Shown: positions 26,195-57,618 of the stretch, in pieces | Layout: each line of letters opens with the position of its first letter | Position numbering within the stretch: the stretch's first letter is position 1 | Notes under the pieces: generated by a model | What the model was told of the DNA's origin: nothing | What the model saw: only the letters and a program-made list of their open reading frames with translations | The model's database searches: none | Position numbers and translations under genes: made by a program | IMG/VR virus record: IMGVR_UViG_3300020029_000569 | Coordinates: 1 to 64,000 of that record | Strand: one strand, 5' to 3' | DNA: 64,000 nt | Source of the DNA: a virus | Lineage: Duplodnaviria; Caudoviricetes

Positions 26195-28186
26195 ATGAGT
26201 GATTGTGGTACTCGCATATTATTACAAGGAGTTTATCCATACGATGTCCCCGAAGCACCGTTGGATAAATCCCTTATTATTAATAGTGAGATAAAAGACC
26301 CATTAGAGCAATATTGGCGAACTCCCGAAATACCCGACTTTAAATTAATGAGTGCCTACGAAATAGAGAAATTTGTTTATAGGGAATGGGATAGAATAGT
26401 TAATGGTGCTTTTTTTATGAATAAAGGGGTTCTTACACATATCAATGGGGCGCATTATGAATACATGACCTATTGGAAAGCAGATTACGAAATTAGATTT
26501 TTGCATATTGACAGATTGTATTTTTACTTCGATGAATTGGTAGATAATTATTCACCTGCATACGGCAAAGCAACATTTAAACCAAGACGGGGTGGTTTTT
26601 CTGCAAAAGAAAACTTCTTAGCGTTTAGAAAATCAAAGATAGGCAAATACAAAAATGTTGTTCTTTTGAATACAACATTGGATAATGCCAAAGAGATTAA
26701 CTATGTTCAAATATCAAATGCGTGGTTGACATACCCCGATTGGTTAAGGCCAAAAATAGACCAACAATCTCCAATAGATGTACCCAAGACGGGTATGGTT
26801 TATAAAAAACTAAAAGGGTACATAAAACCAAAAGCACCATTATCAAATTCGGTGGATGGTAAAAAGATACACTACCTTGTATGGGATGAGGTATTTAAAA
26901 TATTAGCATTAGACCCGCAAGTTATTTTGACTGCATTTTACGAATCCCTCTATGACAAAATCAACGATACTCTTGTAGGTAAGTTAGCATTAGTATCAAC
27001 ATTAGGTGAGGATGATAAGCAAATGGGGCAGGCAATAGAATTTGCAAAGAATATGTGGCGTGATAGCAACATTGAGGATGTAAATGAATTTGGTGCTACT
27101 AAAAGTAAATTACTCAGGTACTTCATATCAGCATACGAAGTACTTGCTATTGACAAGTACGGAGATAGCCACGAACAAAGGGCAAAGGAAATCTATGACA
27201 TAGAAATCAGAGAGATAATTGAAAAGCATGGTGAGCATTCATTTGAACATATTTCATTTTTAAGAAAAAATCCAAGAACGATAGATGATATTTTAAACTC
27301 TCCAAAAACGGGCAGTTCCTTCAATGGTGAATCAAGGGTAACAATAAGAAAAGACCAAGTTGAATTGACCCCACTTGCAGAACGTGGTTATGTAGGTGGT
27401 AAGTTTATAATGGATAACGGACGGGTTATTTTTGATACAAGCGAAAAAAATGCTAATTACGGTTGGAAAATAAAAGGCATAAATATTGCCCGAAAAAATC
27501 TATGCAGGAAATTAGGTGCTGAATGGATACCGCCAACTAACTTTGAAGGTATGGTCGGTTATGACCCCGTGCTTTTAGATGATCCAATTTCAAAACACAT
27601 TTCACAGCCCTCAATAACTATATTTAAAAAGTTAGACCACTATGCAAAGAATGGAATTAAAAACCAAATACAAGGTGTCTATGTGGGTGGCAGGAAAAGG
27701 GATAATGACGAAATAACAGAGCAAGCGGTATTTGCTGCTATTTATTTTGGATATAAACTTTGTCCCGAAAGAAACACGGGTGTTCACTTGAAATTCTTAA
27801 AGAATAACCACTACAATAAAATGTTAGTTAAGTGGACTGACGGTGGTTATGGAATCCAAATCACAACCGCAAAAGGTGAACGAAATATTTTAGATGCGGG
27901 TATCAATGCAATATACAAATGGGTAATAGGGGAACAAGAAGATAGAACTCCTAATATCGAAACTCTAAGCATTGAAGAAATGTTAGACCAACTTGAAAGT
28001 TTCACTCCCGACAAACTTCCAAAGCATGACCATATAGCGTCATTATTACAAGCAAAATTATCCTGCGATAAATTAATTCCTGATGAAAATATTAAGAAGG
28101 AAAAACGAACAAGTACATTACATTCTATGTACCACTCTTTTGGGACAAACGGTGCATCAGCATATCCTCGTAGTCAAAAATATTAA
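26195..28186 (+). CDS. terL: Terminase large subunit (crAss-like type)
   Basis: KPRRGGFS Walker A, YLVWDE Walker B, VST coupling motif, GYDP nuclease motif. Confidence 0.88.
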   Translation: MSDCGTRILLQGVYPYDVPEAPLDKSLIINSEIKDPLEQYWRTPEIPDFKLMSAYEIEKFVYREWDRIVNGAFFMNKGVLTHINGAHYEYMTYWKADYEIRFLHIDRLYFYFDELVDNYSPAYGKATFKPRRGGFSAKENFLAFRKSKIGKYKNVVLLNTTLDNAKEINYVQISNAWLTYPDWLRPKIDQQSPIDVPKTGMVYKKLKGYIKPKAPLSNSVDGKKIHYLVWDEVFKILALDPQVILTAFYESLYDKINDTLVGKLALVSTLGEDDKQMGQAIEFAKNMWRDSNIEDVNEFGATKSKLLRYFISAYEVLAIDKYGDSHEQRAKEIYDIEIREIIEKHGEHSFEHISFLRKNPRTIDDILNSPKTGSSFNGESRVTIRKDQVELTPLAERGYVGGKFIMDNGRVIFDTSEKNANYGWKIKGINIARKNLCRKLGAEWIPPTNFEGMVGYDPVLLDDPISKHISQPSITIFKKLDHYAKNGIKNQIQGVYVGGRKRDNDEITEQAVFAAIYFGYKLCPERNTGVHLKFLKNNHYNKMLVKWTDGGYGIQITTAKGERNILDAGINAIYKWVIGEQEDRTPNIETLSIEEMLDQLESFTPDKLPKHDHIASLLQAKLSCDKLIPDENIKKEKRTSTLHSMYHSFGTNGASAYPRSQKY

Positions 28187-46090: not shown

Positions 46091-47926
46091 ATGGCATACA
46101 CGGAACAAACATTTACGAATTTAGGCAGTGTACAAGCCCCCGATGCAAGTCAATCAACAGCATTTGCAGGTAGTACCCCATTTGCATTTTCAGAAGGTAC
46201 TAATCAACTACTTAACCAAGTAACACAACAAGCGGTAAAGAGAAGGGAAGATGAAGTAAAAATGTACAATGATAATCTGCAAGCAGCGTTATCAAAAGCA
46301 AGTAACATAGCAGAAGGTTTGTCAGCACAAGATTATGATGAAGCAAAATCTAAATCTAAAAAGGCAATTAAATACATTTACGATAATCCTCAAATATTAT
46401 TAGGCAAAGACCCCGAAAAGTCAAACGAATTTAATAATATGCTTGTGGACATTGCATCATACACGCAACTCTCAAAAGCAACAAAAAAAATAGAGGATAA
46501 CTACAACGACCTCATTAAAAAAGATAGTGATTGGAATAACGAAGTGAATAATTATTATTTACAACAATACCGAAATACAACAGACCCTAACGAAAGGGCA
46601 AAAATGGCTTTTACTCCAATTAAAAATCCATTAGGTGATTTCCAAACATTAGTAGTACCTAAACTTCAACAAAACGCACCGATAGAAACACGCACAGAAG
46701 TTGACCCTAATGATAAAGGTAAATTAATTGTTTACCAAGATAAAATATTTGATGAAGGTGTTTATAAAGAAGCATTCAAAAACTACAACGGGGCGTATCT
46801 TACAGAAGAATGGAATGTAAGACCTGACATTCAACAACAATATGCTACTCCTGACGAATACATTGAATTTAAGGCAAAAGAAACATTCGTACCAAAAGCA
46901 ACAAGCAAAAGCAGTGTTACCAATAATGTATCTTATGTTGAAGGTAAAAAGAACGAAAGAAACCAAGCAAGTATAGAAGGTAGGGCAACAGAAGGAGAAG
47001 CAAACCGTAATAACAAAATAAGGTTACAGGAATTAAAAGAAACCCAAACTTCAACTAATCCACAATACAAAAATATTGCACCTATACTTAATAATATAGA
47101 CGGTTTTGAAAGTAATGTAATGAAAACAGTTGAAGCTACCCCCGCAATTGAAAAAATGACAGGTATAAAACAATACAAAGAGGTAAATCCTGCATTTATA
47201 AACGAAACAATTATTAAAGGAGTTTATCCAAATGGCGCAAGTCAATACGGGGATGCTTATGGAAAATTGTATATCGTAACGGATGCAAAAGGTAATTCAT
47301 ACTACGCTCCTGCAAAGGAATTATTCAAAGTTAAGGGCAAACCTGCAACAAAAGAAGAATACGAAGCGGCACAAAAAATATCACCTACCTCAGTTTCAAA
47401 AGAAGTGCTACCAAACAACGACAAAGGACGGCAATACACCAAAGAAACATTATTAGGTAGTGCAGTTGATAATACTGGTAATGGTAGATTTGAGTATGAT
47501 ATTTGGAAGAAAAATAACCAAGAAATACAAACCTTAGAAACGGAAGTTAACAAACCACAATCAGTACAAAAGCAAACATATAAATATCCCAAAATAACAG
47601 GGTATGTAGAAGAACTTAAAAATGATGGAATTGGCATAGGTTCAATAGATACAGGTGGGCATAATAAAGGCTCTTTACATGGCAAAACATTGGCAGTTGA
47701 TTTGCCTGCTTCTAAGAATGGTGGAATTGAAGGGCTGAAAACATTATTGCCAAAATTAAGAGAAAAATATCCCGAATTGGATATTGTAGATGAAATTACA
47801 AAACCAACAGGACAAAGCGTTTGGACGGGGGCGCATATTCATATCGAAATGGACGGAAAAAAAGCAAATTTCCCAGAAGTACAAGTAACAACAACAAAAA
47901 AAGATTGGAGTAAATACAAAAGATAA
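46091..47926 (+). CDS. Internal virion protein with C-terminal M15/LAS-type zinc peptidase domain
   Basis: GHNKGSLHGKTLAVD...HIHIE. Confidence 0.72.
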   Translation: MAYTEQTFTNLGSVQAPDASQSTAFAGSTPFAFSEGTNQLLNQVTQQAVKRREDEVKMYNDNLQAALSKASNIAEGLSAQDYDEAKSKSKKAIKYIYDNPQILLGKDPEKSNEFNNMLVDIASYTQLSKATKKIEDNYNDLIKKDSDWNNEVNNYYLQQYRNTTDPNERAKMAFTPIKNPLGDFQTLVVPKLQQNAPIETRTEVDPNDKGKLIVYQDKIFDEGVYKEAFKNYNGAYLTEEWNVRPDIQQQYATPDEYIEFKAKETFVPKATSKSSVTNNVSYVEGKKNERNQASIEGRATEGEANRNNKIRLQELKETQTSTNPQYKNIAPILNNIDGFESNVMKTVEATPAIEKMTGIKQYKEVNPAFINETIIKGVYPNGASQYGDAYGKLYIVTDAKGNSYYAPAKELFKVKGKPATKEEYEAAQKISPTSVSKEVLPNNDKGRQYTKETLLGSAVDNTGNGRFEYDIWKKNNQEIQTLETEVNKPQSVQKQTYKYPKITGYVEELKNDGIGIGSIDTGGHNKGSLHGKTLAVDLPASKNGGIEGLKTLLPKLREKYPELDIVDEITKPTGQSVWTGAHIHIEMDGKKANFPEVQVTTTKKDWSKYKR

Positions 47927-50900
47927 TGCCAATAAAAAAAACATATCAGTTAGGTAATGAAAAGTTTGATATTCCCGTAGAGGAAACACAGGCATTTTTA
48001 GCAGATAATCCCGATGCAGTAGAACTAAGTAGCTTTGTTGTTGGGAAAGATACGTTTGATATTCCTTTGCCCGAAGTTGAATCTTTTTTAGCAGATAATC
48101 CTGATGCTAAAGAAACATTTGGCGCAGTAAAAAAAAAAGAAACTCCGATACTATCACCGAACAAACCAAAAGCAGAATATCCTATCGCAAGTGGTTTATC
48201 AAGTGGCTCAATACCTCAATCACCTACACAAAGTACCCCAACGGTACAAAGCAATGGACAATCACAAAAAAGTAGTTTTTGGAAGGATGCTATAACAGCT
48301 ACTAAAGAAAATATTGCCCAACAAGGGAAAGTAAATAGACCTATTAAAGAAGATATTTTTACTCAAAATATATCAGGTGTAAAATCACCTATTGAAGTTG
48401 CAAGTAAGCCACAAAAGAAAGCAATAAAAGTTAATCTTAATGAGCAACAACAAAAAGAAGAAGATTACAAGCAGTCGTTACGAGATAAAATAAATTCAGG
48501 CATACCATTAGATATAGAAGAAACTAAATATGTAAAAAAAGCATTTGGGAAAATTGCACCACAAATAGGTAGTTTATCTGTTGCGGAAATTAATCAAGGG
48601 TTATTTGATGCAAACAAAAAAAATACACAACAACGTAGGGATGAATTGCTCAAAGAACATGAATTTGCTGATGTAAATAATAGAATAAAAAATGGCGAAG
48701 TAAGTAAAGAAGATTTACAGATAGCACAGGATAATGGGTTAATCCCACCATTTTTAAAATCAGAACAAGCCGAACAACTAAGGGTTAATTGGAATGCTGA
48801 TATTAAAAATGCTCATGCTGAAATAGATAATGCGCTTTCAAATAATATATCATCAATAGTCCAAAATCAACAAACAGAAAACGATAGGATTGACGCACTT
48901 AAAGCAGGTATCCGTTCTGAAAATTATTATCGTAAAGAAGATACGCCACAAAGGATTGCTCATATAAAAGATATGGAAAATGAGTTATTCCAACTTGAAA
49001 CTAAAAGAAAAAGAGAAGATGATTACCTAAACTCATTAGTTGATAATACTATCAAAGAAAGTCAAAGAGATATAATGATGATGGGTGGTTTTGAATTTGA
49101 CAAAGATAATCGTGGATTGCTTACTGAAAAAGGGCGTGCAGAGGTGGCAAAAGCAGTAGAAGATTATGTAGCAAAACAACCAGCAAGTAAACAGTTTTTG
49201 CTTAATTATAAAAATATCCGTAAAGAATCTTCACTAAAGTATCTCGTATCTCCTCTCATATCATCTCAATTCAAAACATCTGACGTTACAAAAGGAAATG
49301 CTTATTTAGAAGAAGTTGTCGCAAGGACAGCGGAAATATTGCCAAAGTATTTTAAGAATTACTACAAGTCAGTAGATGAAATTTCAAAAGACTTACCAAA
49401 AGAAGCAAAAGGACTTGTAAAGCAAGTCGCTGGAATAGAAGGTGGTACATTTGATAATAATTTTCGTCCAAAATTACTAAATGAGCAAGAAAAAGTAGCA
49501 GCAGTCAATACATTGAAATTCATGGAAATGAAGGGAGATGTAGATAGTCAAAATGCAAAATTTGAACAAGTAGTAAACACGCCACAAGTCAAATCGGTAT
49601 TAGGGCAAGAGTTAACAGACCTTGAAAACAAATACAATAATAAGGAGATAAATGGCGCAACTTTCAAAAACGAAAGACTTAAATTATTATACCTTAATCC
49701 TCAAACAAAATCATTAGCAGAACAATATATACAATCAGTTACAAATGCACAAAATAAGTATGAAAAAGACGTAAATGATTATTTAAAATCTATTCAGCCC
49801 GATTTTGCTAAATATACTAAAATTGATAATAAAGGAAATATAGTTTCTATTGCAGGGATGAAACCTGAAAAATTTGCATCCGTAATGACTGAATTGCAAA
49901 GTGCAAAACAAGTTTCAGAAATAAATGCAACTAAAGAAGTAATACAGGATAGAGAACAGAGAGGTAATGAAGCAATGGGTGAACCTACTGATATGAAAAT
50001 AATCCAACAAGGGTTTACGTCAGGATTAAATAATATGTACACCGCAAGGGCAAAATGGCTTTATGACCAAACAGGCATTGACTTTTTTAATGATGCAAGA
50101 ATAGGTGGAGAAATGGTTTTAAATACTGCAAATCAACCTAACGAAAGTACATTTGCAAAGGACAATTTTACATTAGAAGCAGGAGATTGGATGGGTGCAT
50201 TGAATCCTGCTTATATACTTCATACAGCATCTTCAAGCGCACCGTATATGATGGAAGCGATGGGTACAGGAATAGGCATAGGCGGTATTGCTAAAAATGT
50301 GCTATTAGAAGCAGGATTAGGAGAAGGAGTAGCATTATCAAGGTCGGGTAGATTAATTCAAAAATCACTTGCAGGGGCAAGCGGTGGTAGTCAGGATGCT
50401 TTTAGTACAATGGTATCAAACTATAATGATTTAGTTAAAGAAGGATTTAGCGTTAAAGATGCTGATAGAATTTCAAAAGAAGCATTTGTAAAAGAGGTAG
50501 TACCTGATATGTTATTTAGTGGAATTGGGATGGAAGGATTATTTAGGGCAACTGCAAAACCAACATTAAAAAATGTACTTAAAAGAACTGCTACAACATT
50601 TTTAGAACAAATACCCGAAGGCGCACAAGAAGCTATACAAGGGTATGCTTTAGAAGATGCGAAAGGAACAAAAGAAAATATATTCAATTATGCGTTAGAG
50701 GATAAGGATGGTTTTAATAATTTGATGGGTGGTTTTTCAGGTGGATTAGGAAGCGGTACGGTAGTATCGGCAGTAGGATTGGCAAAAGATACATACGGTT
50801 GGAATAAACTTTATAATATTTCAACTTCTGATATGCAAGATGCAGTAAGATATAGTGCAGTTGCAAATATGGTAAATAATCCTTCGGATATAAAATCACA

Positions 50901-53900
50901 ATCAGCATTAGACATGATGAAATTAAGCATGGATGATTACCGAAAGGTGTATATGGAAACTCCCGAAACGGATAAATTAGCAAAAGACAAGGCACGTCAA
51001 GATTATTCAAATTCATTAAGAACTTACGCCTATGCCAAAGAGTATAATAGGCAAGCACAAAAATCTAATGTAGAGGACATTCACGCTGATTACAAAGCAC
51101 ATAACCGAGCAGTAGCAAACTCGTATCAAAAGTTAGCTGATAATGCAGAAGAAGCAAATAAAAAAACATACCAAAAACAAGCTGACCATTATACTCAATT
51201 AGCGGACAAAGCAGAATACGGACAGCAAACTCCTATCTATGCTTTTGAAACTAATACAGGTAGAGTATTCATTACAGAAAGCACAGCTAAGACACTCGCA
51301 GAAGGTAGTATTTTAGATAAAAACGATAAGTTTAATGATGCAGTAAAGAATGGAGTAATTACAGGAATACAGGTTATTGATGATAGCGAAACCAATAAAA
51401 AACTTACTGAAAAATTTGCAGAAGCACAAAAGAAAAAAGCACCACCGATAGCACCAATCATTTCAGAAGAACAAGAAAATCAAATAGATAATTCAAATAC
51501 CACACAAGGAATAGGAGTAGTTGAATCTAATGGTAAATTCACTGTTGTTAATCCTAATGGAACTAAAGAAGTATTTGATACAAAAGACGAAGCAGATGCG
51601 AGAGCATTGGAAATAGCAAACCCTAAAACTGAAAATAAAGCAGTAGAAAATATAATATCTATTGAGGACAGAAAAAGAAAAGATTTATTTCCTGACGAAT
51701 CAGAATTTGCAGATGTTATCGGAGAAAGCGGTAAAAATTCAAATATATCATCATACAGAGAAGTGAACGGTATTGGAATATCTGAATATACTAATCCTGA
51801 TAACGGTTTGGTTGATGTAATAATGTCAGGCACATCAGATAACGACTATGTAGGATACGTTAGAATTTATGAAAACGGTAAGCCGACAGAAAGGTGGACT
51901 TCTAAAATGGAGAACAAGTCAGGCAATAAAGAGAATTTTAAAACTATGATTTCGGAAGTACAAAAATTACTTCCACAAGGGCATGAATATACCGAAAAGA
52001 CAAACATTTCATTAGACGGATTAAGAGTTTATGCCAATCAATTAAACAGAGGATATGAAATTGCTACCGATGAAAATGGAGATGCTATAACAAACAATGT
52101 AGAATTAAATAACGCTACATTAGAGGCATTACAGGGGGCAAAAACAGAAAGCGAAGTAAGTAGTTTATACGACAAAAAAACAGGCATAACTAAAGAAGAA
52201 TTTGATAAAATAAAAGATAAAATAAATTCTCTTATTCCTAATACAAGGGTACTATTCAATTCTTCTAATGGTTCTGTCATAATAAAATTACCTGTACTAA
52301 AATCTAAAACCCAAAATGCTACACAAAACACAGAAATTGCAAGTGCAGAAAGCACAACAACTATTGGACAAAACGAATTGCCCCAAACGGAAGGAACGGT
52401 TAATGAAAATGTTACTGAAACTCAAAAACCTATTTCAGCAACATTAGAAGGTAAACCTATAACCATTGAAAAAACAGAAACGGGTTACACCTACACCACC
52501 GCAAAAGGAATAGTAGAGGAAGTTTCAGAAACAGAACACCAAGAAAATATTGCAGACAACTCATTGGTTATACCAAAAACTACGCCTGATGAAAAAATAG
52601 TAAATGATAATACATTTACAAGGGATGATATGAAGTCAGTATCTGACGGTACAGGACTAGCCAAGAAAGGTGCTGAGGTAATGACAACTGACAAAGTAGA
52701 ATCTAATTTAAGAGTAGGCGATAAGGTTACATTTTTTGCAGAAAAAGAAAGAAGTGGGGTATGGGATGGAAAATCAATAAAAGACAAAGACGGAAATCCT
52801 TGGGGGGTAATGGGTATTTTAGCAGATACTAATGGATGGATAAGAAATGATACTAAAATTGAAGAATCTAAAAAAGAAGCAGTAGTAAGCAGTACGGATG
52901 CTATCGAAGTACCCACAACCACTGATACGCCTACTGCTGAAACTGCAACCAAAGGAGAACCCGAAAGAATATCACAACCTATTGAATTAGACCCAAACAT
53001 TACATCACCATTAAATACAGAACAAGATGCCATTCAAAAGTCAGAAACAGAGGGCGGCGTGTTACGCACAGAACAACCCAAATTGGAACTGCAAAGCGTG
53101 GGAGAAGGAAACACCCAAGAGCAAACCGCTACCACAGAAAGTGAAGCCAAAAAAGAAACCATAACTCCTATTCAAAGAATAACAGGTAACAAAGATGCAG
53201 TAACATTAAGTGGGTTAACAGAAAAAGAAAGGCAACAACAAATTGCAGAAAGAGATAACAGTTTAAAACTTTCAAAAGAAAAAGAAGCTGAAAGTAATTT
53301 AGCGGGACAAGTACGAAGGTTTAATGAAATGCGCAGGAATGATGCCAAAAGACCAAGATTACTTAATGACATTAGAAAAGCATCAACGGAACAAGGATTT
53401 GAAGTTAAGTATGACGGTAAGGGAATTGAGGTATTAAAGAAAACCAAAAAAGGCAAACCGACTAAAATAAACTCTTATTCATCAGAAGTGGGCAGACGTA
53501 GCACAACTAATGAAAAAGCATTGCATGAAAGAAGTGAAGCGGTACAAGACCTTTATGTGAAATTAATGGATTTGGGTATTGATTTGGATTTAAGAAATTC
53601 AGACGATAATAGTCGTTTTTCTGAATCACAAATAGAAAGTGCAATAACAGATATTGAAAATGGAATACCAAGCAGACAAGCAAATGAAATATTAAACAAA
53701 GTTGAAGCATTAGCGGAAACGGGTAAATTAGAAGTAGGTGATAAAGTAAGTGGGTATAAGTCAATTCCTATTGATGAATTAATTACAGAAGCAGAAGAAT
53801 TAAGAAGCGAAGAACTTTTTAAAGACCTTACAAATGATGAAGTTTTTGAACTTTACTCAAACGAATTACTTGCATCAAACGAAACCGATAACATTATAAA

Positions 53901-56900
53901 CCAAGAATATGAAAGAATTAACAATGAAGGAGCAGTTTCAAGCACTCCCGAAACAAGCACAACAGACAGCAGTACAGCAAATGAAGAAACATCTGATGAA
54001 AAAGGAACTAACGAAGCGACTTATGAAACAAAAGAAACAGATGTAGTTGAAAGCGCATCCAAAAATATATTTAACGAAACAAAAGAAAGCATCAGCAAAA
54101 AAATAAAATCAGTTCAAGAAAAAATATCAAAAGCGATAAATGATGGGATAAGTAAGTGGGGTTCTAAAAAAGGGTATTACGGGGAGGAATATGGAGATCA
54201 AAACGAAAAAGAAATTAATATCCCTAATTATACTTTTTCCGATAAGAGAAATGTAGAAGGTTCTGAATATAAAGAAGATTTCGATAATTATAGAAAACTA
54301 ACAACAGAAGCTCAGAAGTTACATGAGTTATTGGATGCTGTGAATCCAAAATTAGAATCAGAAAGTTCAAAAAACCTAAAGAAAAGGTTAGGTAGTATTG
54401 CCTTTAATTTTAGTTCTAATTCAGATACGGATAAAATACTTTTATCAAAAGAGGTAGATAATATTCTTAAAGAGTTAGAAAGCAGAGACGAAAATGTTGA
54501 TGGAGAAAAACTGTTAAGCGATTATTACAATGCGGATGCAGATGAATCGCAAATTCAACAAATGAAAAATAATTCTGCTGAAATAACAGAGTTGATTAAA
54601 TCAAATACGCCCACAAAACTGATTGGAATAGTACCAGAAAAAATATCAGAATCATTTGATAAACTTGCTGATAAAATATTAGCATTAAGGTCAAAAGGAG
54701 ATAGCCTAAAAACTGATATTACTTTAGGACTTAAAGATGCCGCACTAACAGAAATAGCATCTCTAATAAGAGATATTGGTACAGTCGCAGACAAGGTAGC
54801 AGAGGTGATAAAAGCTATCAATAAAGTACTTTCAAAACCCGAATACAAAGACCTAAATAAAGATGAAATTAGGAATGAAGTTTTATCTGCCATTAATCCT
54901 ATCAGCGATGCAAATAAAAAGTACTTAGACGGGGTAATTAAAAATATCGAAGATGGCAAAACTACTCTCGAAGAAGAAATAAAAGACATTCAAGACGACC
55001 TACCTAAAAGGTACGCTGACAAATACATAAAATACCTCAATGATAATTATACACCAAAACAAGAAAATAAAAAAGAAAAAACCGATAACACCAAAACCGA
55101 AGCCAAAGAAACAGAAGTATTAAGCGAAGAAGATAATCAAGCAGGCATAGCACATAGACTGACAGAAGAAACAAGGAAAGAATTAGGATTGCCAGAATAT
55201 GAAAAAGAAACGATAACTGATGCCGAATTGGATGGTATGGCTGATGCTGAAATTAAAAACGGGTACAATATTAAAAAGTTAGTTACTAAAATGGCAAAAG
55301 GGGTATTACCTACTGCCTTAGAACAAACTATAATGAAAAAGTATCTTGCAAGTTTGGAAGCGCAGATAGAAAAAAATCCTACCAATGAATCAATAAACGA
55401 TTACAAAACAGCCGTTGAAGCGAGTGATGCAATAGGTTCAGAAATAGGTAGAAGTCTTAGAAGCAGGAGAGGTGGTATCATTAAAGATGATAGTATTGCT
55501 GCATACTTTTTAACTGAATTGGAATCATCGGGTGTTGACGAATTAACCGAAGCGCAAAAGAACAAAGTACAAAAAGAGTTCAACGATATTCAGGAAGCGA
55601 ACAGGAAATTACAAGAAAAAATAGCACAGTTAGAAATTGAAAATGCTAAAATATTGGCAGACAAGGCTATTGCTAAAGAAGCAAAAACAAAGTCTAAAAA
55701 AGAAGATTTAAAGAAGCAAAAAGAAGATATTAAAGAATCTATCAAGCAGAAACTAAAAGAAGCAAGAAGCCAATTAAGTTCTACCCCTGTACCGTATCTG
55801 AATGAAATATTAGCAATTACACCTGATGTTGCTAAATTAGTAAAAGTATATGCAGAAGAAGGGATTATCAAATTAGACGAAATTGTAGATAATATCCATG
55901 CTATTATTAAAGAAAATTCAGACAACATAACTAAAAAAGATATTATAGATATTATAGCGGGTAAATACAATGAAAGAAAACAAACCCGTTCTGATATTGC
56001 AAAACAACTTTTAGACCTTAGAACACAAGCTAATTTAGTCGGCAAATTAGAAAGTTTAGAAAATGGGATTGAACCTAAAACCGAAACTAAAAAAGTGGAA
56101 AGGAATAAGGAAATATCTTCTTTGAGAAAAAAAATAAATGAGAATTATCTTACTAAATTATCCTCTGCAAAAAATACTATTCAAAACCAAATTGACAAAC
56201 TTAGAGAAGATTTAAGCACAGGAAACTTTTTAGATAAACAAGAAAACCAAGAACTTAAATTAGACAAAGAAGCTATTGCATTAAAAGACGAATTGATTAA
56301 GTTGAAGAAAGAAAGAGATATTAGACTTTTAAGGCAACAATATCAAAACAGGTCATTAAAGCAGAAAGCAGTTGATTCTTTTTTGGAGATAATTAATGTG
56401 CCAAGAACAATAATGAGTTCAATGGATTTTTCAGCCCCTTTAAGACAGGGGTTAATTGCAAGCATATCCCACCCCACAGTTGCATTTAAAGCATTTGGGG
56501 AAATGTTCAGGCAAGCGGTTTCTCAAAAAAGATTTGACAGGTGGTTTAATGATATTCGAGAAAGCGAGTTATTTGAAATAATGGAGAAAAGTGGTTTGTA
56601 TGTAGCTGCCCCTCACGACCTTAGATTATCTGCCAAAGAAGAACAGTTTATGAATAATCTTGCAGAAAAAATACCGTTCATTGGGGGTGCAGTAAGAATA
56701 CCTCAATCAGTACCATTAATAGGGGGTAAGAAAATTGGAGGATTAATAAAAGGCAGTGAACGTGCGTATGTATCTTACTTAAATAAAATGAGAGTAGATT
56801 TATTTACACAAGGCGCACAGGTATTAGAATCAATGGGTAAGACTTATGATAATAGTCCTAAAGAATATGAAGGTCTTGCAAGTTTTGTAAATAACTCAAC

Positions 56901-57618
56901 AGGTCGTGGTAAATTAGGTGCTATTGAATCCGCAGCACCAATATTAAATTCAGTATTCTTTTCTCCAAGATTAATTGCATCGAGGCTTAACTTATTAAAT
57001 CCCTTGTACTATGCTCAATTACCACCATACGCCCGTAAAATGGCATTAAAAGATATGACTAAATTTATAACTTTTGGTGTTACATTATTGGCTTTAATAA
57101 AACAAACGTGGGGGTGTCCTGATGATTGCCCCGAATGTACAGATTGCGCCAATATCGAATTAGACCCAAGAAGTACTGATTTTGGCAAAATACGAGTAGG
57201 TAATACAAGGTATGATGCATGGGGTGGCTTTCAACAGTACGCAAGGATAATAGCGCAAATGATAACGGGGGAAGCAAAATCTTCAACAACGGGTAACGTC
57301 AGAAAAATAGATGGTGAAGGTTTGTTTGGCAAGGATAGAGCCGATGTTTTAGGATCATTTTTTAGGGGTAAATTAGCACCTGTTCCTGCATCTATTTTAG
57401 ATATTGTATCGGGTAGGAATATTATTGGAGAAAAAGTAGATGCAAAAATGATAGCAGAAAGAACCCTATTACCTCTAATATACAGTGATGTTAAAGAAGC
57501 AGTAAATGAGCAAGGAATTAAAGCATTAGCAACAGTAGGATTGCCCGCAGCATTTGGTATCGGGGTAAATACATATACTCCAAAAAAATCAAAATACGAT
57601 AAAGAAGAAACTAAATGA
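47926..57618 (+). CDS. Giant (3230 aa) polyvalent internal virion protein
   Basis: Last cargo gene; G/A-rich membrane-like middle; coiled coils; C-terminal PRTIMSSMDFSAPLRQG...ELDPRSTDFGK region. Confidence 0.8.
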   Translation: MPIKKTYQLGNEKFDIPVEETQAFLADNPDAVELSSFVVGKDTFDIPLPEVESFLADNPDAKETFGAVKKKETPILSPNKPKAEYPIASGLSSGSIPQSPTQSTPTVQSNGQSQKSSFWKDAITATKENIAQQGKVNRPIKEDIFTQNISGVKSPIEVASKPQKKAIKVNLNEQQQKEEDYKQSLRDKINSGIPLDIEETKYVKKAFGKIAPQIGSLSVAEINQGLFDANKKNTQQRRDELLKEHEFADVNNRIKNGEVSKEDLQIAQDNGLIPPFLKSEQAEQLRVNWNADIKNAHAEIDNALSNNISSIVQNQQTENDRIDALKAGIRSENYYRKEDTPQRIAHIKDMENELFQLETKRKREDDYLNSLVDNTIKESQRDIMMMGGFEFDKDNRGLLTEKGRAEVAKAVEDYVAKQPASKQFLLNYKNIRKESSLKYLVSPLISSQFKTSDVTKGNAYLEEVVARTAEILPKYFKNYYKSVDEISKDLPKEAKGLVKQVAGIEGGTFDNNFRPKLLNEQEKVAAVNTLKFMEMKGDVDSQNAKFEQVVNTPQVKSVLGQELTDLENKYNNKEINGATFKNERLKLLYLNPQTKSLAEQYIQSVTNAQNKYEKDVNDYLKSIQPDFAKYTKIDNKGNIVSIAGMKPEKFASVMTELQSAKQVSEINATKEVIQDREQRGNEAMGEPTDMKIIQQGFTSGLNNMYTARAKWLYDQTGIDFFNDARIGGEMVLNTANQPNESTFAKDNFTLEAGDWMGALNPAYILHTASSSAPYMMEAMGTGIGIGGIAKNVLLEAGLGEGVALSRSGRLIQKSLAGASGGSQDAFSTMVSNYNDLVKEGFSVKDADRISKEAFVKEVVPDMLFSGIGMEGLFRATAKPTLKNVLKRTATTFLEQIPEGAQEAIQGYALEDAKGTKENIFNYALEDKDGFNNLMGGFSGGLGSGTVVSAVGLAKDTYGWNKLYNISTSDMQDAVRYSAVANMVNNPSDIKSQSALDMMKLSMDDYRKVYMETPETDKLAKDKARQDYSNSLRTYAYAKEYNRQAQKSNVEDIHADYKAHNRAVANSYQKLADNAEEANKKTYQKQADHYTQLADKAEYGQQTPIYAFETNTGRVFITESTAKTLAEGSILDKNDKFNDAVKNGVITGIQVIDDSETNKKLTEKFAEAQKKKAPPIAPIISEEQENQIDNSNTTQGIGVVESNGKFTVVNPNGTKEVFDTKDEADARALEIANPKTENKAVENIISIEDRKRKDLFPDESEFADVIGESGKNSNISSYREVNGIGISEYTNPDNGLVDVIMSGTSDNDYVGYVRIYENGKPTERWTSKMENKSGNKENFKTMISEVQKLLPQGHEYTEKTNISLDGLRVYANQLNRGYEIATDENGDAITNNVELNNATLEALQGAKTESEVSSLYDKKTGITKEEFDKIKDKINSLIPNTRVLFNSSNGSVIIKLPVLKSKTQNATQNTEIASAESTTTIGQNELPQTEGTVNENVTETQKPISATLEGKPITIEKTETGYTYTTAKGIVEEVSETEHQENIADNSLVIPKTTPDEKIVNDNTFTRDDMKSVSDGTGLAKKGAEVMTTDKVESNLRVGDKVTFFAEKERSGVWDGKSIKDKDGNPWGVMGILADTNGWIRNDTKIEESKKEAVVSSTDAIEVPTTTDTPTAETATKGEPERISQPIELDPNITSPLNTEQDAIQKSETEGGVLRTEQPKLELQSVGEGNTQEQTATTESEAKKETITPIQRITGNKDAVTLSGLTEKERQQQIAERDNSLKLSKEKEAESNLAGQVRRFNEMRRNDAKRPRLLNDIRKASTEQGFEVKYDGKGIEVLKKTKKGKPTKINSYSSEVGRRSTTNEKALHERSEAVQDLYVKLMDLGIDLDLRNSDDNSRFSESQIESAITDIENGIPSRQANEILNKVEALAETGKLEVGDKVSGYKSIPIDELITEAEELRSEELFKDLTNDEVFELYSNELLASNETDNIINQEYERINNEGAVSSTPETSTTDSSTANEETSDEKGTNEATYETKETDVVESASKNIFNETKESISKKIKSVQEKISKAINDGISKWGSKKGYYGEEYGDQNEKEINIPNYTFSDKRNVEGSEYKEDFDNYRKLTTEAQKLHELLDAVNPKLESESSKNLKKRLGSIAFNFSSNSDTDKILLSKEVDNILKELESRDENVDGEKLLSDYYNADADESQIQQMKNNSAEITELIKSNTPTKLIGIVPEKISESFDKLADKILALRSKGDSLKTDITLGLKDAALTEIASLIRDIGTVADKVAEVIKAINKVLSKPEYKDLNKDEIRNEVLSAINPISDANKKYLDGVIKNIEDGKTTLEEEIKDIQDDLPKRYADKYIKYLNDNYTPKQENKKEKTDNTKTEAKETEVLSEEDNQAGIAHRLTEETRKELGLPEYEKETITDAELDGMADAEIKNGYNIKKLVTKMAKGVLPTALEQTIMKKYLASLEAQIEKNPTNESINDYKTAVEASDAIGSEIGRSLRSRRGGIIKDDSIAAYFLTELESSGVDELTEAQKNKVQKEFNDIQEANRKLQEKIAQLEIENAKILADKAIAKEAKTKSKKEDLKKQKEDIKESIKQKLKEARSQLSSTPVPYLNEILAITPDVAKLVKVYAEEGIIKLDEIVDNIHAIIKENSDNITKKDIIDIIAGKYNERKQTRSDIAKQLLDLRTQANLVGKLESLENGIEPKTETKKVERNKEISSLRKKINENYLTKLSSAKNTIQNQIDKLREDLSTGNFLDKQENQELKLDKEAIALKDELIKLKKERDIRLLRQQYQNRSLKQKAVDSFLEIINVPRTIMSSMDFSAPLRQGLIASISHPTVAFKAFGEMFRQAVSQKRFDRWFNDIRESELFEIMEKSGLYVAAPHDLRLSAKEEQFMNNLAEKIPFIGGAVRIPQSVPLIGGKKIGGLIKGSERAYVSYLNKMRVDLFTQGAQVLESMGKTYDNSPKEYEGLASFVNNSTGRGKLGAIESAAPILNSVFFSPRLIASRLNLLNPLYYAQLPPYARKMALKDMTKFITFGVTLLALIKQTWGCPDDCPECTDCANIELDPRSTDFGKIRVGNTRYDAWGGFQQYARIIAQMITGEAKSSTTGNVRKIDGEGLFGKDRADVLGSFFRGKLAPVPASILDIVSGRNIIGEKVDAKMIAERTLLPLIYSDVKEAVNEQGIKALATVGLPAAFGIGVNTYTPKKSKYDKEETK
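47962..48108 (+). repeat. Two 30-aa tandem repeats FDIPxxExxxFLADNPDA at the giant-protein N-terminus
   Basis: TTTGATATTCC and TTTTTAGCAGATAATCC each repeated 90 nt apart. Confidence 0.85.
48129..48275 (+). other. A10 slippage site and -1 frame extension of the giant gene
   Basis: GTA AAA AAA AAA GAA; -1 frame open to TAG at 48273. Confidence 0.55.
52316..52447 (+). CDS. Nested +1-frame 43-aa basic ORF inside the giant gene
   Basis: MLHKTQKLQVQKAQQLLDKTNCPKRKERLMKMLLKLKNLFQQH; leader TAAAATCTAAAACCCAAA. Confidence 0.5.
   Translation: MLHKTQKLQVQKAQQLLDKTNCPKRKERLMKMLLKLKNLFQQH
53027..53164 (+). CDS. Nested +1-frame 45-aa MPFKS-type basic ORF inside the giant gene
   Basis: MPFKSQKQRAACYAQNNPNWNCKAWEKETPKSKPLPQKVKPKKKP. 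Confidence 0.7.
   Translation: MPFKSQKQRAACYAQNNPNWNCKAWEKETPKSKPLPQKVKPKKKP
53909..54046 (+). CDS. Nested +1-frame 45-aa basic ORF inside the giant gene
   Basis: MKELTMKEQFQALPKQAQQTAVQQMKKHLMKKELTKRLMKQKKQM; A-rich leader. Confidence 0.45.
   Translation: MKELTMKEQFQALPKQAQQTAVQQMKKHLMKKELTKRLMKQKKQM

What the first reader, a model, noticed from the sequence alone, without database searches (positions are those of the whole stretch)
53027..53164. A recognisable small phage protein (MPFKS type) is nested out of frame inside the giant cargo gene
Seen: the +1 frame under the acidic linker DAIQKSETEGGVLRTEQPKLELQSVGEGN reads MPFKSQKQRAACYAQNNPNWNCKAWEKETPKSKPLPQKVKPKKKP*, after an A-rich leader (TTAAATACAGAACAAG). 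From memory, MPFKSxxQRxxxYA...W.KETP...LP.KV matches a widespread stand-alone small basic phage protein. Inference: the gene is real and the linker of the giant protein is its read-through shadow. Gene callers would miss it.
Basis: partly seen in the sequence, partly recalled or inferred. Interest (0 to 1): 0.85.

Follow-up and report, generated by a model that had tools for sequence, protein, structure and literature searches.

The report
Hidden small gene inside giant gene
A 45-codon gene for a small, very basic protein is hidden one base out of frame inside a giant phage virion gene, and the same unannotated gene is kept under protein-level selection in well over a hundred related phage sequences.

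Summary
ORF 53027..53164 (+) encodes the 45-aa MPFKS peptide, at +1 offset inside the 3230-aa ORF 47926..57618.

- The peptide belongs to a large phage family with no Pfam or NCBIfam model: 3,088 50%-identity clusters. Members occur as stand-alone small genes, some with strong Shine-Dalgarno sites, or as the first ~40 residues of longer proteins.
- The same ORF sits at the same +1 offset in Elemovirus phages, in MW202828 and in many IMG/VR contigs. Its hosts are giant virion genes or ~400-aa genes between portal and capsid genes.
- Across 46 unique nested copies, variation peaks at the third positions of the small frame. pN/pS is 0.27 in the small frame and 1.24 in the host frame. In the 7 giant-hosted copies it is 0.24 and 1.57.
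- The host frame is kept open, against about 0.2% odds under random synonymous codons.
- The giant genes share nothing detectable except this module.
- A Bacteroidetes-type A-rich initiation region (A at -3, -6, -11 to -13) is conserved upstream.
- One relative (L006) has a stop in the host frame while the small ORF stays intact.

The function is unknown. My best guess is a virion-associated adaptor or tag module.

The parts
53027..53164 (+). Nested gene: 45-aa basic mini-protein (MPFKS family). It has predicted helices at residues 6-15 and 22-28, a Cys12/Cys22 pair and a Lys/Pro-rich tail. The stop codon is included.
   Evidence: Searches give the ORF. Searches show it retained in relatives. 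Searches show selection follows this frame. AF2 pLDDT 81.5; strict covariation of the Cys pair.
53006..53026 (+). Presumed translation initiation region of the nested gene. It is an A-rich leader with A at -2, -3, -5, -6, -8, -10 and -12 to -14, and it lies inside the host coding sequence. A TAA in the small frame at 53012-53014 closes that frame 4 codons upstream.
   Evidence: One search gives the sequence; in 54 unique nested leaders A is 96/83/93% at -13/-12/-11, 93% at -6 and 80% at -3, and the window's own 40 gene starts show the same peaks. (PMC6847099): A-3, A-6, A-12 and A-13 stimulate initiation in Flavobacterium johnsoniae.
53020..53124 (+). Host-frame reading of the same DNA (giant protein residues ~1699-1733, EQDAIQKSETEGGVLRTEQPKLELQSVGEGNTQEQ). 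It is a 'shadow' segment inside a T/E/P/Q-rich linker. It is kept free of stops but shows no purifying selection on its residues.
   Evidence: host-frame pN/pS 1.24 and 1.57; the chance of the frame being open is 0.0025 for this peptide; this is the only segment shared with other host genes.
47926..57618 (+). Host gene: a 3230-aa giant ORF, the last gene of the + strand late block downstream of the large terminase gene (26195..28186). It has no Pfam or PHROG family.

Best explanation
53027..53164 is a genuine protein-coding gene lying wholly inside the giant virion gene, one base out of frame.

How it is probably made (inferred): the late mRNA that carries the giant gene is also used for internal initiation at ATG 53027. 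That start is preceded by a conserved, SD-less, A-rich Bacteroidetes-type initiation region. The product is a 45-aa, net +10 mini-protein: a two-helix hairpin pinned by a covarying residue pair (Cys12/Cys22 here), followed by a Lys/Pro-rich tail.

Which frame is older (inferred): the small gene. It belongs to a very large phage family that otherwise occurs as stand-alone genes tightly abutting the stop of an upstream gene, or as the N-terminal ~40 residues of larger proteins. In this lineage the flanking large reading frame runs straight through it, so an acidic linker of the giant protein is merely the other-frame reading of the small gene. That reading has to stay free of stops.

Shown: the ORF, its retention, selection on the small frame, selection for host-frame openness, the conserved leader, and the family distribution.

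Inferred: independent translation, and the function. My best guess at function, about 0.3, is a virion-associated adaptor or tag-like module made together with capsid-internal or cargo proteins.
For: 1. Retention. The ORF is present at the same +1 offset, at 42-46 aa, in Elemovirus, in MW202828 and in IMG/VR giant genes, and in ~400-aa genes between portal and capsid genes. 80 of 80 loci recovered through the host-frame motif have an intact +1 ORF of 41-51 aa.

2. Frame of selection.
- Entropy over small codons 1-29 in 46 unique copies is 0.72 at small position 3, against 0.41 and 0.36 at positions 1 and 2. The excess of position 3 over position 2 gives Wilcoxon p=4.6e-4.
- Along the ~400-aa host gene, host position 3 is the most variable in every 15-codon window except the three windows over the nested ORF.
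- Pooled NG86 pN/pS is 0.27 in the small frame, 1.24 in the host frame and 1.10 in the third frame. In the 7 giant-hosted copies including the window it is 0.24, 1.57 and 1.08. Stand-alone genes give 0.22.

3. Stand-alone homologues have real Shine-Dalgarno sites and a closed host-equivalent frame. The family has 3,088 clusters at E<=1e-3. phrog_1375 hits stand-alone members.

4. Protein-like constraints. AF2 pLDDT is 81.5 with two helices. The residue pair covaries strictly: C/C 88, M/A 118, no mixed pairs.

5. A conserved A-rich leader matches the experimentally defined Flavobacterium initiation determinants.

6. In L006 a CCC>CCT change, synonymous in the small frame, creates TAA in the host frame, and the small ORF stays intact.

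7. The host genes share only this module.
Against: There is no direct evidence of translation: no Ribo-seq and no proteomics. No RNA run could be used.

The nested copies are phylogenetically related, so counts such as 80/80 are not independent events. The pattern used itself forces the ATG.

The tail after residue ~30 is less conserved in the ~400-aa hosts. L006 is a single metagenomic contig. The function is not established, and the gene neighbourhoods of stand-alone copies are mixed: some lie in virion modules, some in replication modules.
Confidence: 0.85

Rival explanations
1. The +1 frame is read by ribosomes that shift frame, not by independent initiation. Either the host frame shifts +1 into the small frame, or the small frame shifts -1 at its A-rich 3' end back into the host frame. 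The second route would give an MPFKS-headed C-terminal half of the giant protein.
For: The window's ORF ends with CCA AAA AAG, a dnaX-like A_AAA_AAG heptamer in the small frame. The family module is normally the N-terminus of larger proteins. P0013 and P0004 read from the small frame into the host frame.
Against: Only 13 of 62 unique nested ORFs have any X_XXY_YYZ heptamer in frame, against 4 of 16 stand-alone genes, and the positions are not conserved. The ATG is invariant, and the small frame is closed by a stop 0-19 codons upstream, typically 4-6. P0013 and P0004 can be explained as indel variants or assembly errors, for example in A-rich runs; P0004 sits in the fragmented contig L007.
Confidence: 0.06
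2. In this particular phage the nested ORF is an engulfed relic. It is conserved only because too little time has passed, or because of constraints from the host frame, and it is no longer expressed.
For: There are no expression data. The window has a single copy. Near-identical environmental strains show no changes in it, which is uninformative.
Against: Synonymous sites between giant-hosted copies are close to saturation (pS 0.68), while pN is 0.16. This means long-term purifying selection in the nested state. The window copy keeps the ATG, its full length, the Cys pair and the A-rich leader. The host frame shows no residue-level constraint that could explain the conservation.
Confidence: 0.05
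3. The selected object is the host-frame peptide motif (DAIQ.Q.T.E.VLR.EQ..GLQ.VG.GN), for example a cleavage or docking motif of capsid-internal proteins, and the MPFKS ORF is its by-product.
For: The motif is visible in all hosts. A second EDAVQKQ copy with a 10-codon +1 ORF occurs in the Elemovirus giant gene (L002 5605-5637).
Against: Host-frame third positions are the least variable, and host-frame pN/pS is 1.2-1.6, like the non-coding third frame. The motif was never found without the intact small ORF. The small protein exists on its own where the host-equivalent frame is closed. L006 breaks the motif with a stop.
Confidence: 0.02
4. The conserved island is a nucleic-acid signal, such as an RNA structure, a promoter, or a recombination or packaging site, and not coding in the +1 frame.
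For: It is the only ~140 nt of 2.5 kb that matches another phage at the DNA level.
Against: The variation has strict three-base periodicity in the small frame, pN/pS is 0.24-0.27, and there are stand-alone protein homologues whose synonymous sites are close to saturated (pS 0.885).
Confidence: 0.02

Closest known systems
Embedded phage genes of the Rz/Rz1 type (lambda o-spanin gene Rz1 wholly inside i-spanin gene Rz, +1 frame); from established knowledge
   Same: A small gene lies completely inside a larger phage late gene in the +1 frame. It is presumably translated from its own internal start, and gene callers miss it.
   Different: There is no sequence relation. The MPFKS protein has no signal peptide or lipobox, since its N-terminus is polar and basic. 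The host is a virion or scaffold-position gene, not a lysis gene. Here the embedded gene is the old, widely distributed family, and the host-frame reading is the derived one.
Overprinting by loss of a stop codon or extension of a neighbouring gene in viral genomes (general mechanism; ancestral frame judged by phylogenetic distribution)
   Same: In several stand-alone copies the upstream gene ends one base before the ATG and lies in the frame that would become the host frame (L003, L066, L086). L071, L073, L078 and L063 show partial overlaps of 8-120 nt. The nested state needs TTC rather than TTT at Phe3 to avoid TAA.
   Different: Engulfment is complete: the host frame continues for hundreds to thousands of codons on both sides. 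It also recurs in host genes that share no other detectable similarity.
phrog_1375 (unknown function) and Pfam DUF3008 (PF11450)
   Same: phrog_1375 matches stand-alone family members (E 6e-5). A DUF3008-labelled viral cluster is the nearest named neighbour in the ESM Atlas (0.87, a lead only). From memory, DUF3008 proteins share an MP.KSK.Q start and a K.LP.K end.
   Different: The window peptide hits neither model. The family as a whole has no Pfam or NCBIfam model.
Constant N-terminal trafficking modules on variable phage cargo (MuF-fused polymorphic toxins; T4 capsid-targeting sequences); functional analogy only, from established knowledge
   Same: The MPFKS module heads proteins with very diverse C-terminal parts: YkuD, 2H phosphoesterase, P-loop kinase-like, DUF5661, ParB-like and MuF. 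It also sits in blocks of large virion or cargo genes (L089, and L092 next to the crAss ring proteins).
   Different: No packaging, binding or cleavage has been shown. Some copies lie in replication modules. Here the module is a free 45-aa protein, not a tag on a cargo.

Membership tests
MPFKS small-protein family (no Pfam/NCBIfam name; defined here by alignments A1/A2) | Invariant N-terminal M-P-F-K-S and Q8 | tested here: met
   these positions are invariant in all 77 sequences, and the window has MPFKSQKQ.
MPFKS small-protein family (no Pfam/NCBIfam name; defined here by alignments A1/A2) | Two short helices with a covarying contact pair (position 12 and the residue three before the conserved Trp) | tested here: met
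   helices at 6-15 and 22-28, pLDDT 81.5. C/C 88, M/A 118, no mixed pairs. The window has C12/C22.
MPFKS small-protein family (no Pfam/NCBIfam name; defined here by alignments A1/A2) | The W-x-K-E-T-P ... L-P-x-K motif followed by a basic tail | tested here: met
   the window has WEKETPKSKPLPQKVKPKKKP. The profile match to the window is E 7.4e-24, but that profile includes the window sequence.
phrog_1375 | A significant match to the PHROG profile | tested here: not met
   the window peptide has no hit to phrog_1375 and only phrog_7179 at E 0.27; relatives P0007 and P0005 match at 6e-5 and 8e-4.
Pfam DUF3008 (PF11450) | A match to the Pfam HMM at or near the gathering score | tested here: not met
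   none of the 77 members matches at E<=10; a six-frame search of the whole 92-kb record finds nothing at E<=10. The only support is an ESM Atlas lead at 0.87.
Embedded o-spanin (Rz1-like) | An N-terminal lipoprotein signal with a lipobox Cys, embedded in an i-spanin gene of the lysis cassette | tested here: not met
   By reading the sequence: there is no hydrophobic signal segment, and the first Cys is at residue 12 inside a polar helix. The host is a 3230-aa virion-block gene.
Programmed -1 frameshift cassette | A conserved X_XXY_YYZ slippery heptamer at a fixed place in the shifting frame | tested here: not met
   13 of 62 nested ORFs have any such heptamer and the positions vary. The window's AAAAAAG is not conserved.
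Dual-coding (overlapping) gene pair | Purifying selection detectable in the alternative frame, and both frames kept open | tested here: met
   small-frame pN/pS is 0.24-0.27. The chance of the host frame being open is 0.0017 on average under random synonymous codons, yet it is open in every copy scored as nested (68 instances; L006 is the one related copy with a host-frame stop).
Dual-coding (overlapping) gene pair | Both products detected | not testable with these tools
   No proteomic or ribosome-profiling data are available. No RNA holder was listed.

The most novel reading that the evidence does not exclude
The MPFKS module is a portable N-terminal adaptor that marks proteins for the capsid interior or for ejection. 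Its ~130-nt coding island, the only conserved DNA inside otherwise unalignable giant cargo genes, is the junction at which cargo genes are repeatedly fused, split and swapped between phages. On this reading the nested mini-gene is a free copy of the adaptor, kept because it takes part in loading or releasing the cargo protein that surrounds it.
Probability: 0.12. Interest if true: 0.85.

Novelty: new variant of a known kind. Interest (0 to 1): 0.62.

Why it matters
First, it adds a real, conserved and so far unannotated gene to Elemovirus phages and to a large group of uncultured aquatic and wastewater podoviruses. Gene callers suppress it because it lies inside a longer ORF.

Second, it is an unusually clean natural case of a large gene reading through an older small gene. 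The wobble phase flips exactly over the overlap. The host frame evolves like non-coding sequence except that it avoids stops. Intermediate states also exist: abutting genes, partial overlaps, and a split host.

Third, it draws attention to a very large family (more than 3,000 clusters) that has no Pfam or NCBIfam model and heads many different phage enzymes and virion proteins. Its function is now testable with mutations that are silent in one frame.

Tried and rejected
- **Frameshifting:** a -1 frameshift out of the small ORF's A-rich tail was considered and rejected, because no slippery site is conserved.
- **DUF3008 membership:** no HMM hit.
- **Known-family and structure searches for the small protein:** Pfam, NCBIfam and PDB sequence searches gave nothing meaningful. 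The weak hepatocyte-growth-factor kringle hit (E 0.06) and the Choline_sulf_C hits (best E 1.4e-4, 8 of 77 members) were treated as chance. Foldseek of the AF2 model against the PDB gave no match.
- **Window virion-block proteins:** Pfam and PHROG searches found only the large terminase. So I could not show that the phage is crAss-like or name the giant gene's role.
- **'Decapitated cargo' idea:** BLASTP of the giant proteins against the C-terminal parts of long MPFKS-headed proteins gave no hit, so the idea is untested.
- **Literature:** full-text searches for MPFKS, DUF3008 and overlapping gene/scaffolding/podovirus found no description of this gene.
- **Expression:** no RNA holder listed. 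The runs that were laid are contigs and probably DNA, so they say nothing on transcription.
- **Complex prediction:** not run, because I make no binding claim.
- **Tree of the 44-column peptide alignment:** poorly resolved, so the counted transitions are only suggestive.
Full report
**1. The observation**

The window has ATG at 53027 and TAA at 53162-53164. The enclosing ORF 47926..57618 encodes 3230 aa and reads DAIQKSETEGGVLRTEQPKLELQSVGEGN over the same bases. The offset is +1, since 5101 = 3 x 1700 + 1.

An open +1 frame of this size is not rare here. The gene is 42% A, and its +1 frame holds 98 ATG-ORFs, five of them 30 aa or longer, including another of 45 aa and one of 43 aa. Those two have no tblastn match in 50,697 phage records. 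The MPFKS ORF matches 70 records. The signal is therefore conservation, not openness.

The window is part of a 92,206-bp IMG/VR virus record with inverted terminal repeats, and it carries a single copy.

**2. Relatives**

tblastn found the peptide in 68 Flavobacterium Elemovirus records, in MW202828 and in one further record. In each case the match lies under a giant CDS annotated 'structural protein' or 'reticulocyte binding/rhoptry protein', and no small gene is annotated there. In both records examined the ORF is intact (43 and 42 aa) and has the same +1 offset.

When 2.5 kb around the ORF was searched at the DNA level, only window positions 53010-53152 matched any phage record. That stretch is the nested ORF.

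Protein searches gave a family of small proteins with the consensus MPFKSQKQRAWMY.NKP.MAKKWEKETPKGKKLP.KV. One member, P0011, is a stand-alone gene on a contig that also carries a P22-type portal gene. It has GAGGAGG six bases upstream of its ATG. The frame that would be the host frame is closed by TTT-TAA at its fourth codon.

A profile search of 1.84 billion cluster representatives gave 3,088 clusters at E<=1e-3 and 170 at E<=1e-10. Many are proteins of 43-100 aa. Many others are 100-676 aa with the module at residues 1-41.

The family has no Pfam or NCBIfam model. phrog_1375 (unknown function) matches stand-alone members but not the window peptide.

**3. How widespread the nested state is**

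A scan of IMG/VR with the peptide alignment returned 80 loci. Together with the earlier loci and the window, these gave 68 nested instances, always with the small ORF at +1, and 18 that are not nested.

The hosts are of two kinds:
- Giant ORFs of 1,000 to more than 3,000 codons.
- ORFs of about 400 codons lying between the portal gene (phrog_6547, E 1e-143) and a 480-aa gene in the capsid position. This is where a scaffolding gene would sit. The small ORF covers roughly host codons 50-95.

A second scan used the host-frame motif as the query. It returned 80 loci, and every one has an intact +1 ORF of 41-51 aa, giving 59 unique peptides. The search pattern itself forces the ATG, but it does not force the further 30 or more open codons.

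**4. Which frame is under selection**

- In 46 unique nested copies without indels, column entropy over small codons 1-29 is 0.72 at small position 3 (host position 1). It is 0.41 at small position 1 and 0.36 at small position 2 (host position 3). Position 3 exceeds position 2 with Wilcoxon p=4.6e-4.
- In a codon alignment of 46 unique ~400-aa host genes, the host third position is the most variable in every 15-codon window (1.0-1.4 bits). The only exceptions are the three windows over the nested ORF. There it falls to about 0.6, and host position 1 becomes the most variable.
- Pooled Nei-Gojobori estimates are in the table below.

| Set | Frame | pS | pN | pN/pS |
|---|---|---|---|---|
| 46 unique nested copies | small | 0.56 | 0.15 | 0.27 |
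| 46 unique nested copies | host | 0.18 | 0.22 | 1.24 |
| 46 unique nested copies | third | | | 1.10 |
| 7 giant-hosted copies, incl. window | small | 0.68 | 0.16 | 0.24 |
| 7 giant-hosted copies, incl. window | host | | | 1.57 |
| 7 giant-hosted copies, incl. window | third | | | 1.08 |
| Stand-alone genes | small | | | 0.22 |

The nested gene is therefore as constrained as its free relatives. The host-frame residues evolve as a by-product.

The host frame is nevertheless kept open. If the nested peptides are back-translated with random synonymous codons, the host frame is stop-free in 0.17% of trials on average, and in 0.25% for the window peptide. Yet it is open in every copy scored as nested. 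For example, all nested copies use TTC-AAA at Phe3-Lys4, where free copies often use TTT-AAA, which reads TAA in the host frame.

This is a true dual-coding stretch.

**5. A natural split**

In contig L006 a Pro codon of the small ORF is CCT, not the CCC seen in its relative L025. The change is silent in the small frame, but it creates TAA in the host frame. The giant frame is cut into a piece of at least 610 aa and a piece of 1632 aa, while the 43-aa ORF stays intact. It is one metagenomic contig. Still, it shows that the small ORF can persist without read-through.

**6. Protein-like features**

AlphaFold2 run with the 77-sequence alignment gives mean pLDDT 81.5, with helices at residues 6-15 and 22-28.

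Residue 12 and the residue three before the conserved Trp covary strictly. Among 257 unique family N-termini the pairs are C/C 88, M/A 118, L/A 8 and F/V 6, with no C/non-C mixtures. The window has C12 and C22.

The peptide has 11 Lys, 1 Arg and 2 Glu.

**7. Initiation signal**

In 54 unique nested leaders, A is found in 96, 83 and 93% at -13, -12 and -11, in 93% at -6 and in 80% at -3. Neighbouring positions vary. The starts of 40 other genes in the window show A peaks at the same places.

Baez et al. 2019 (PMC6847099) showed by ribosome profiling and reporters that A-3, A-6, A-12 and A-13 stimulate initiation in Flavobacterium johnsoniae, whose mRNAs lack Shine-Dalgarno sites. The window leader has A at -3, -6 and -12 to -14.

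The small frame is closed by a stop 0-19 codons upstream, typically 4-6, and the ATG is invariant. This favours independent internal initiation.

The alternative, a -1 shift out of the A-rich tail (the window has A_AAA_AAG), is not supported. Only 13 of 62 nested ORFs have any in-frame slippery heptamer, and the positions are not conserved.

**8. Host genes and evolution**

BLASTP of the window giant protein against the Elemovirus giant, six other giants and a ~400-aa host finds only the ~31-aa module. The one exception is a separate domain shared with L061.

The small family is far more widely distributed than the host-frame motif, which was never seen without the small ORF. By the usual phylogenetic-distribution criterion, the small frame is the ancestral one.

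Several stand-alone copies sit one base after the stop of an upstream gene that lies in the frame that would become the host frame (L003, L066 after the portal gene, L086 after a gene of at least 1332 aa). Others overlap it by 8 nt (L071) or by 83-120 nt (L073, L078, L063).

These look like steps on a route of stop loss followed by read-through. This is an inference.

A tree of 73 peptides needs at least 4 changes between nested and free states, at least 2 of them forced by well-supported branches, and 8 changes when the state is scored as free, ~400-aa host or giant host. With only 44 alignment columns the tree is weakly resolved.

**9. Function**

Nothing is established.

Clues that point to the virion:
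- The hosts are virion-assembly genes.
- In L089 an MPFKS-headed L,D-transpeptidase (YkuD) follows a gene of more than 1100 aa and precedes a Phage_lysozyme2 gene.
- In L092 an MPFKS-headed 720-aa protein lies among genes of 830-1721 aa just after the crAss ring-protein genes.
- One family member is fused to a MuF head-protein domain.

Clues against a purely structural role:
- Other family members head a 2H phosphoesterase, a P-loop kinase-like domain, DUF5661 (repeatedly) and a ParB-like domain.
- Some free copies lie next to primase-like and ribonucleotide reductase genes.

My working model, at about 0.3, is a small adaptor or tag-like module associated with capsid-internal or cargo proteins. 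In the nested state it would be made from the same late message as its host.

**10. Comparison with known systems, and verdict**

The arrangement works like lambda Rz1 inside Rz: complete embedding, +1 frame, own start. It is unrelated in sequence and lacks a lipoprotein signal.

Its origin fits overprinting by extension of a neighbouring gene. Here, however, the engulfment is complete and recurs in hosts that share nothing else.

DUF3008 is the nearest named family only as an ESM Atlas lead (0.87). HMM tests failed.

Full-text searches found no description of this gene.

What remains is direct proof of translation, and the function.

**11. Environmental strains**

Near-identical DNA occurs in wastewater and activated-sludge runs. 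Some contigs carry an in-frame 294-nt deletion (52576-52869) just upstream of the nested ORF, together with clustered substitutions at 52482-52518. No listed difference falls inside 53027-53164.

Noticed in passing
L006:1778-1909 (host-frame TAA at 1831-1833): In this freshwater contig the giant frame is cut by a stop inside the module, giving a piece of >=610 aa and a piece of 1632 aa, while the 43-aa MPFKS ORF stays intact. The stop arises from a Pro codon change that is silent in the small frame.
   Followed up: partly
L002:5605-5637 (Elemovirus MT497071): There is a second, truncated copy of the module start about 400 nt upstream of the real one. The host frame repeats QEDAVQKQ, and the +1 frame reads MPFKSKKLMK followed by a stop (10 codons). 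It may be a duplicated remnant.
   Followed up: no
window 52576-52869 and 52482-52518: Contigs from wastewater and activated-sludge runs carry an in-frame 294-nt deletion of the giant gene just upstream of the nested ORF. They also carry nine clustered substitutions at 52482-52518. The giant gene is length-polymorphic between near-identical strains.
   Followed up: no
I found no evidence that they are genes.
   Followed up: partly
L092:314-19691: On a crAss-like contig the gene order is CrAss_Ring_2, a 170-aa gene, CrAss_Ring_1, then genes of 1721, 830, 720, 867 and >=1621 aa. The 720-aa protein starts with the MPFKS module, and its ATG overlaps the stop of the upstream gene.
   Followed up: partly
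L003:6238-6309: A tRNA-Met (CAT) gene lies 79 nt downstream of the stand-alone MPFKS gene on this contig, which also carries a P22-type portal gene.
   Followed up: yes
P0182 (217 aa) and P0013 (62 aa): P0182 has an Endonuclease_7 domain and a divergent MPFKS-like module (MPPFRSRAQ...) at its C-terminus. It also begins with the letters MPFKS. P0013 runs from the small frame into the host-frame sequence of a ~400-aa host. Both may be frame-joined variants or assembly errors.
   Followed up: no
window 47926-57618 versus L001, L002, L008, L020, L025, L061, L067, L069: The giant virion genes of these phages share no BLASTP-detectable similarity with the window's giant gene apart from the ~31-aa module. 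The one exception is a ~260-aa domain shared with L061 (window residues 1215-1471).
   Followed up: partly
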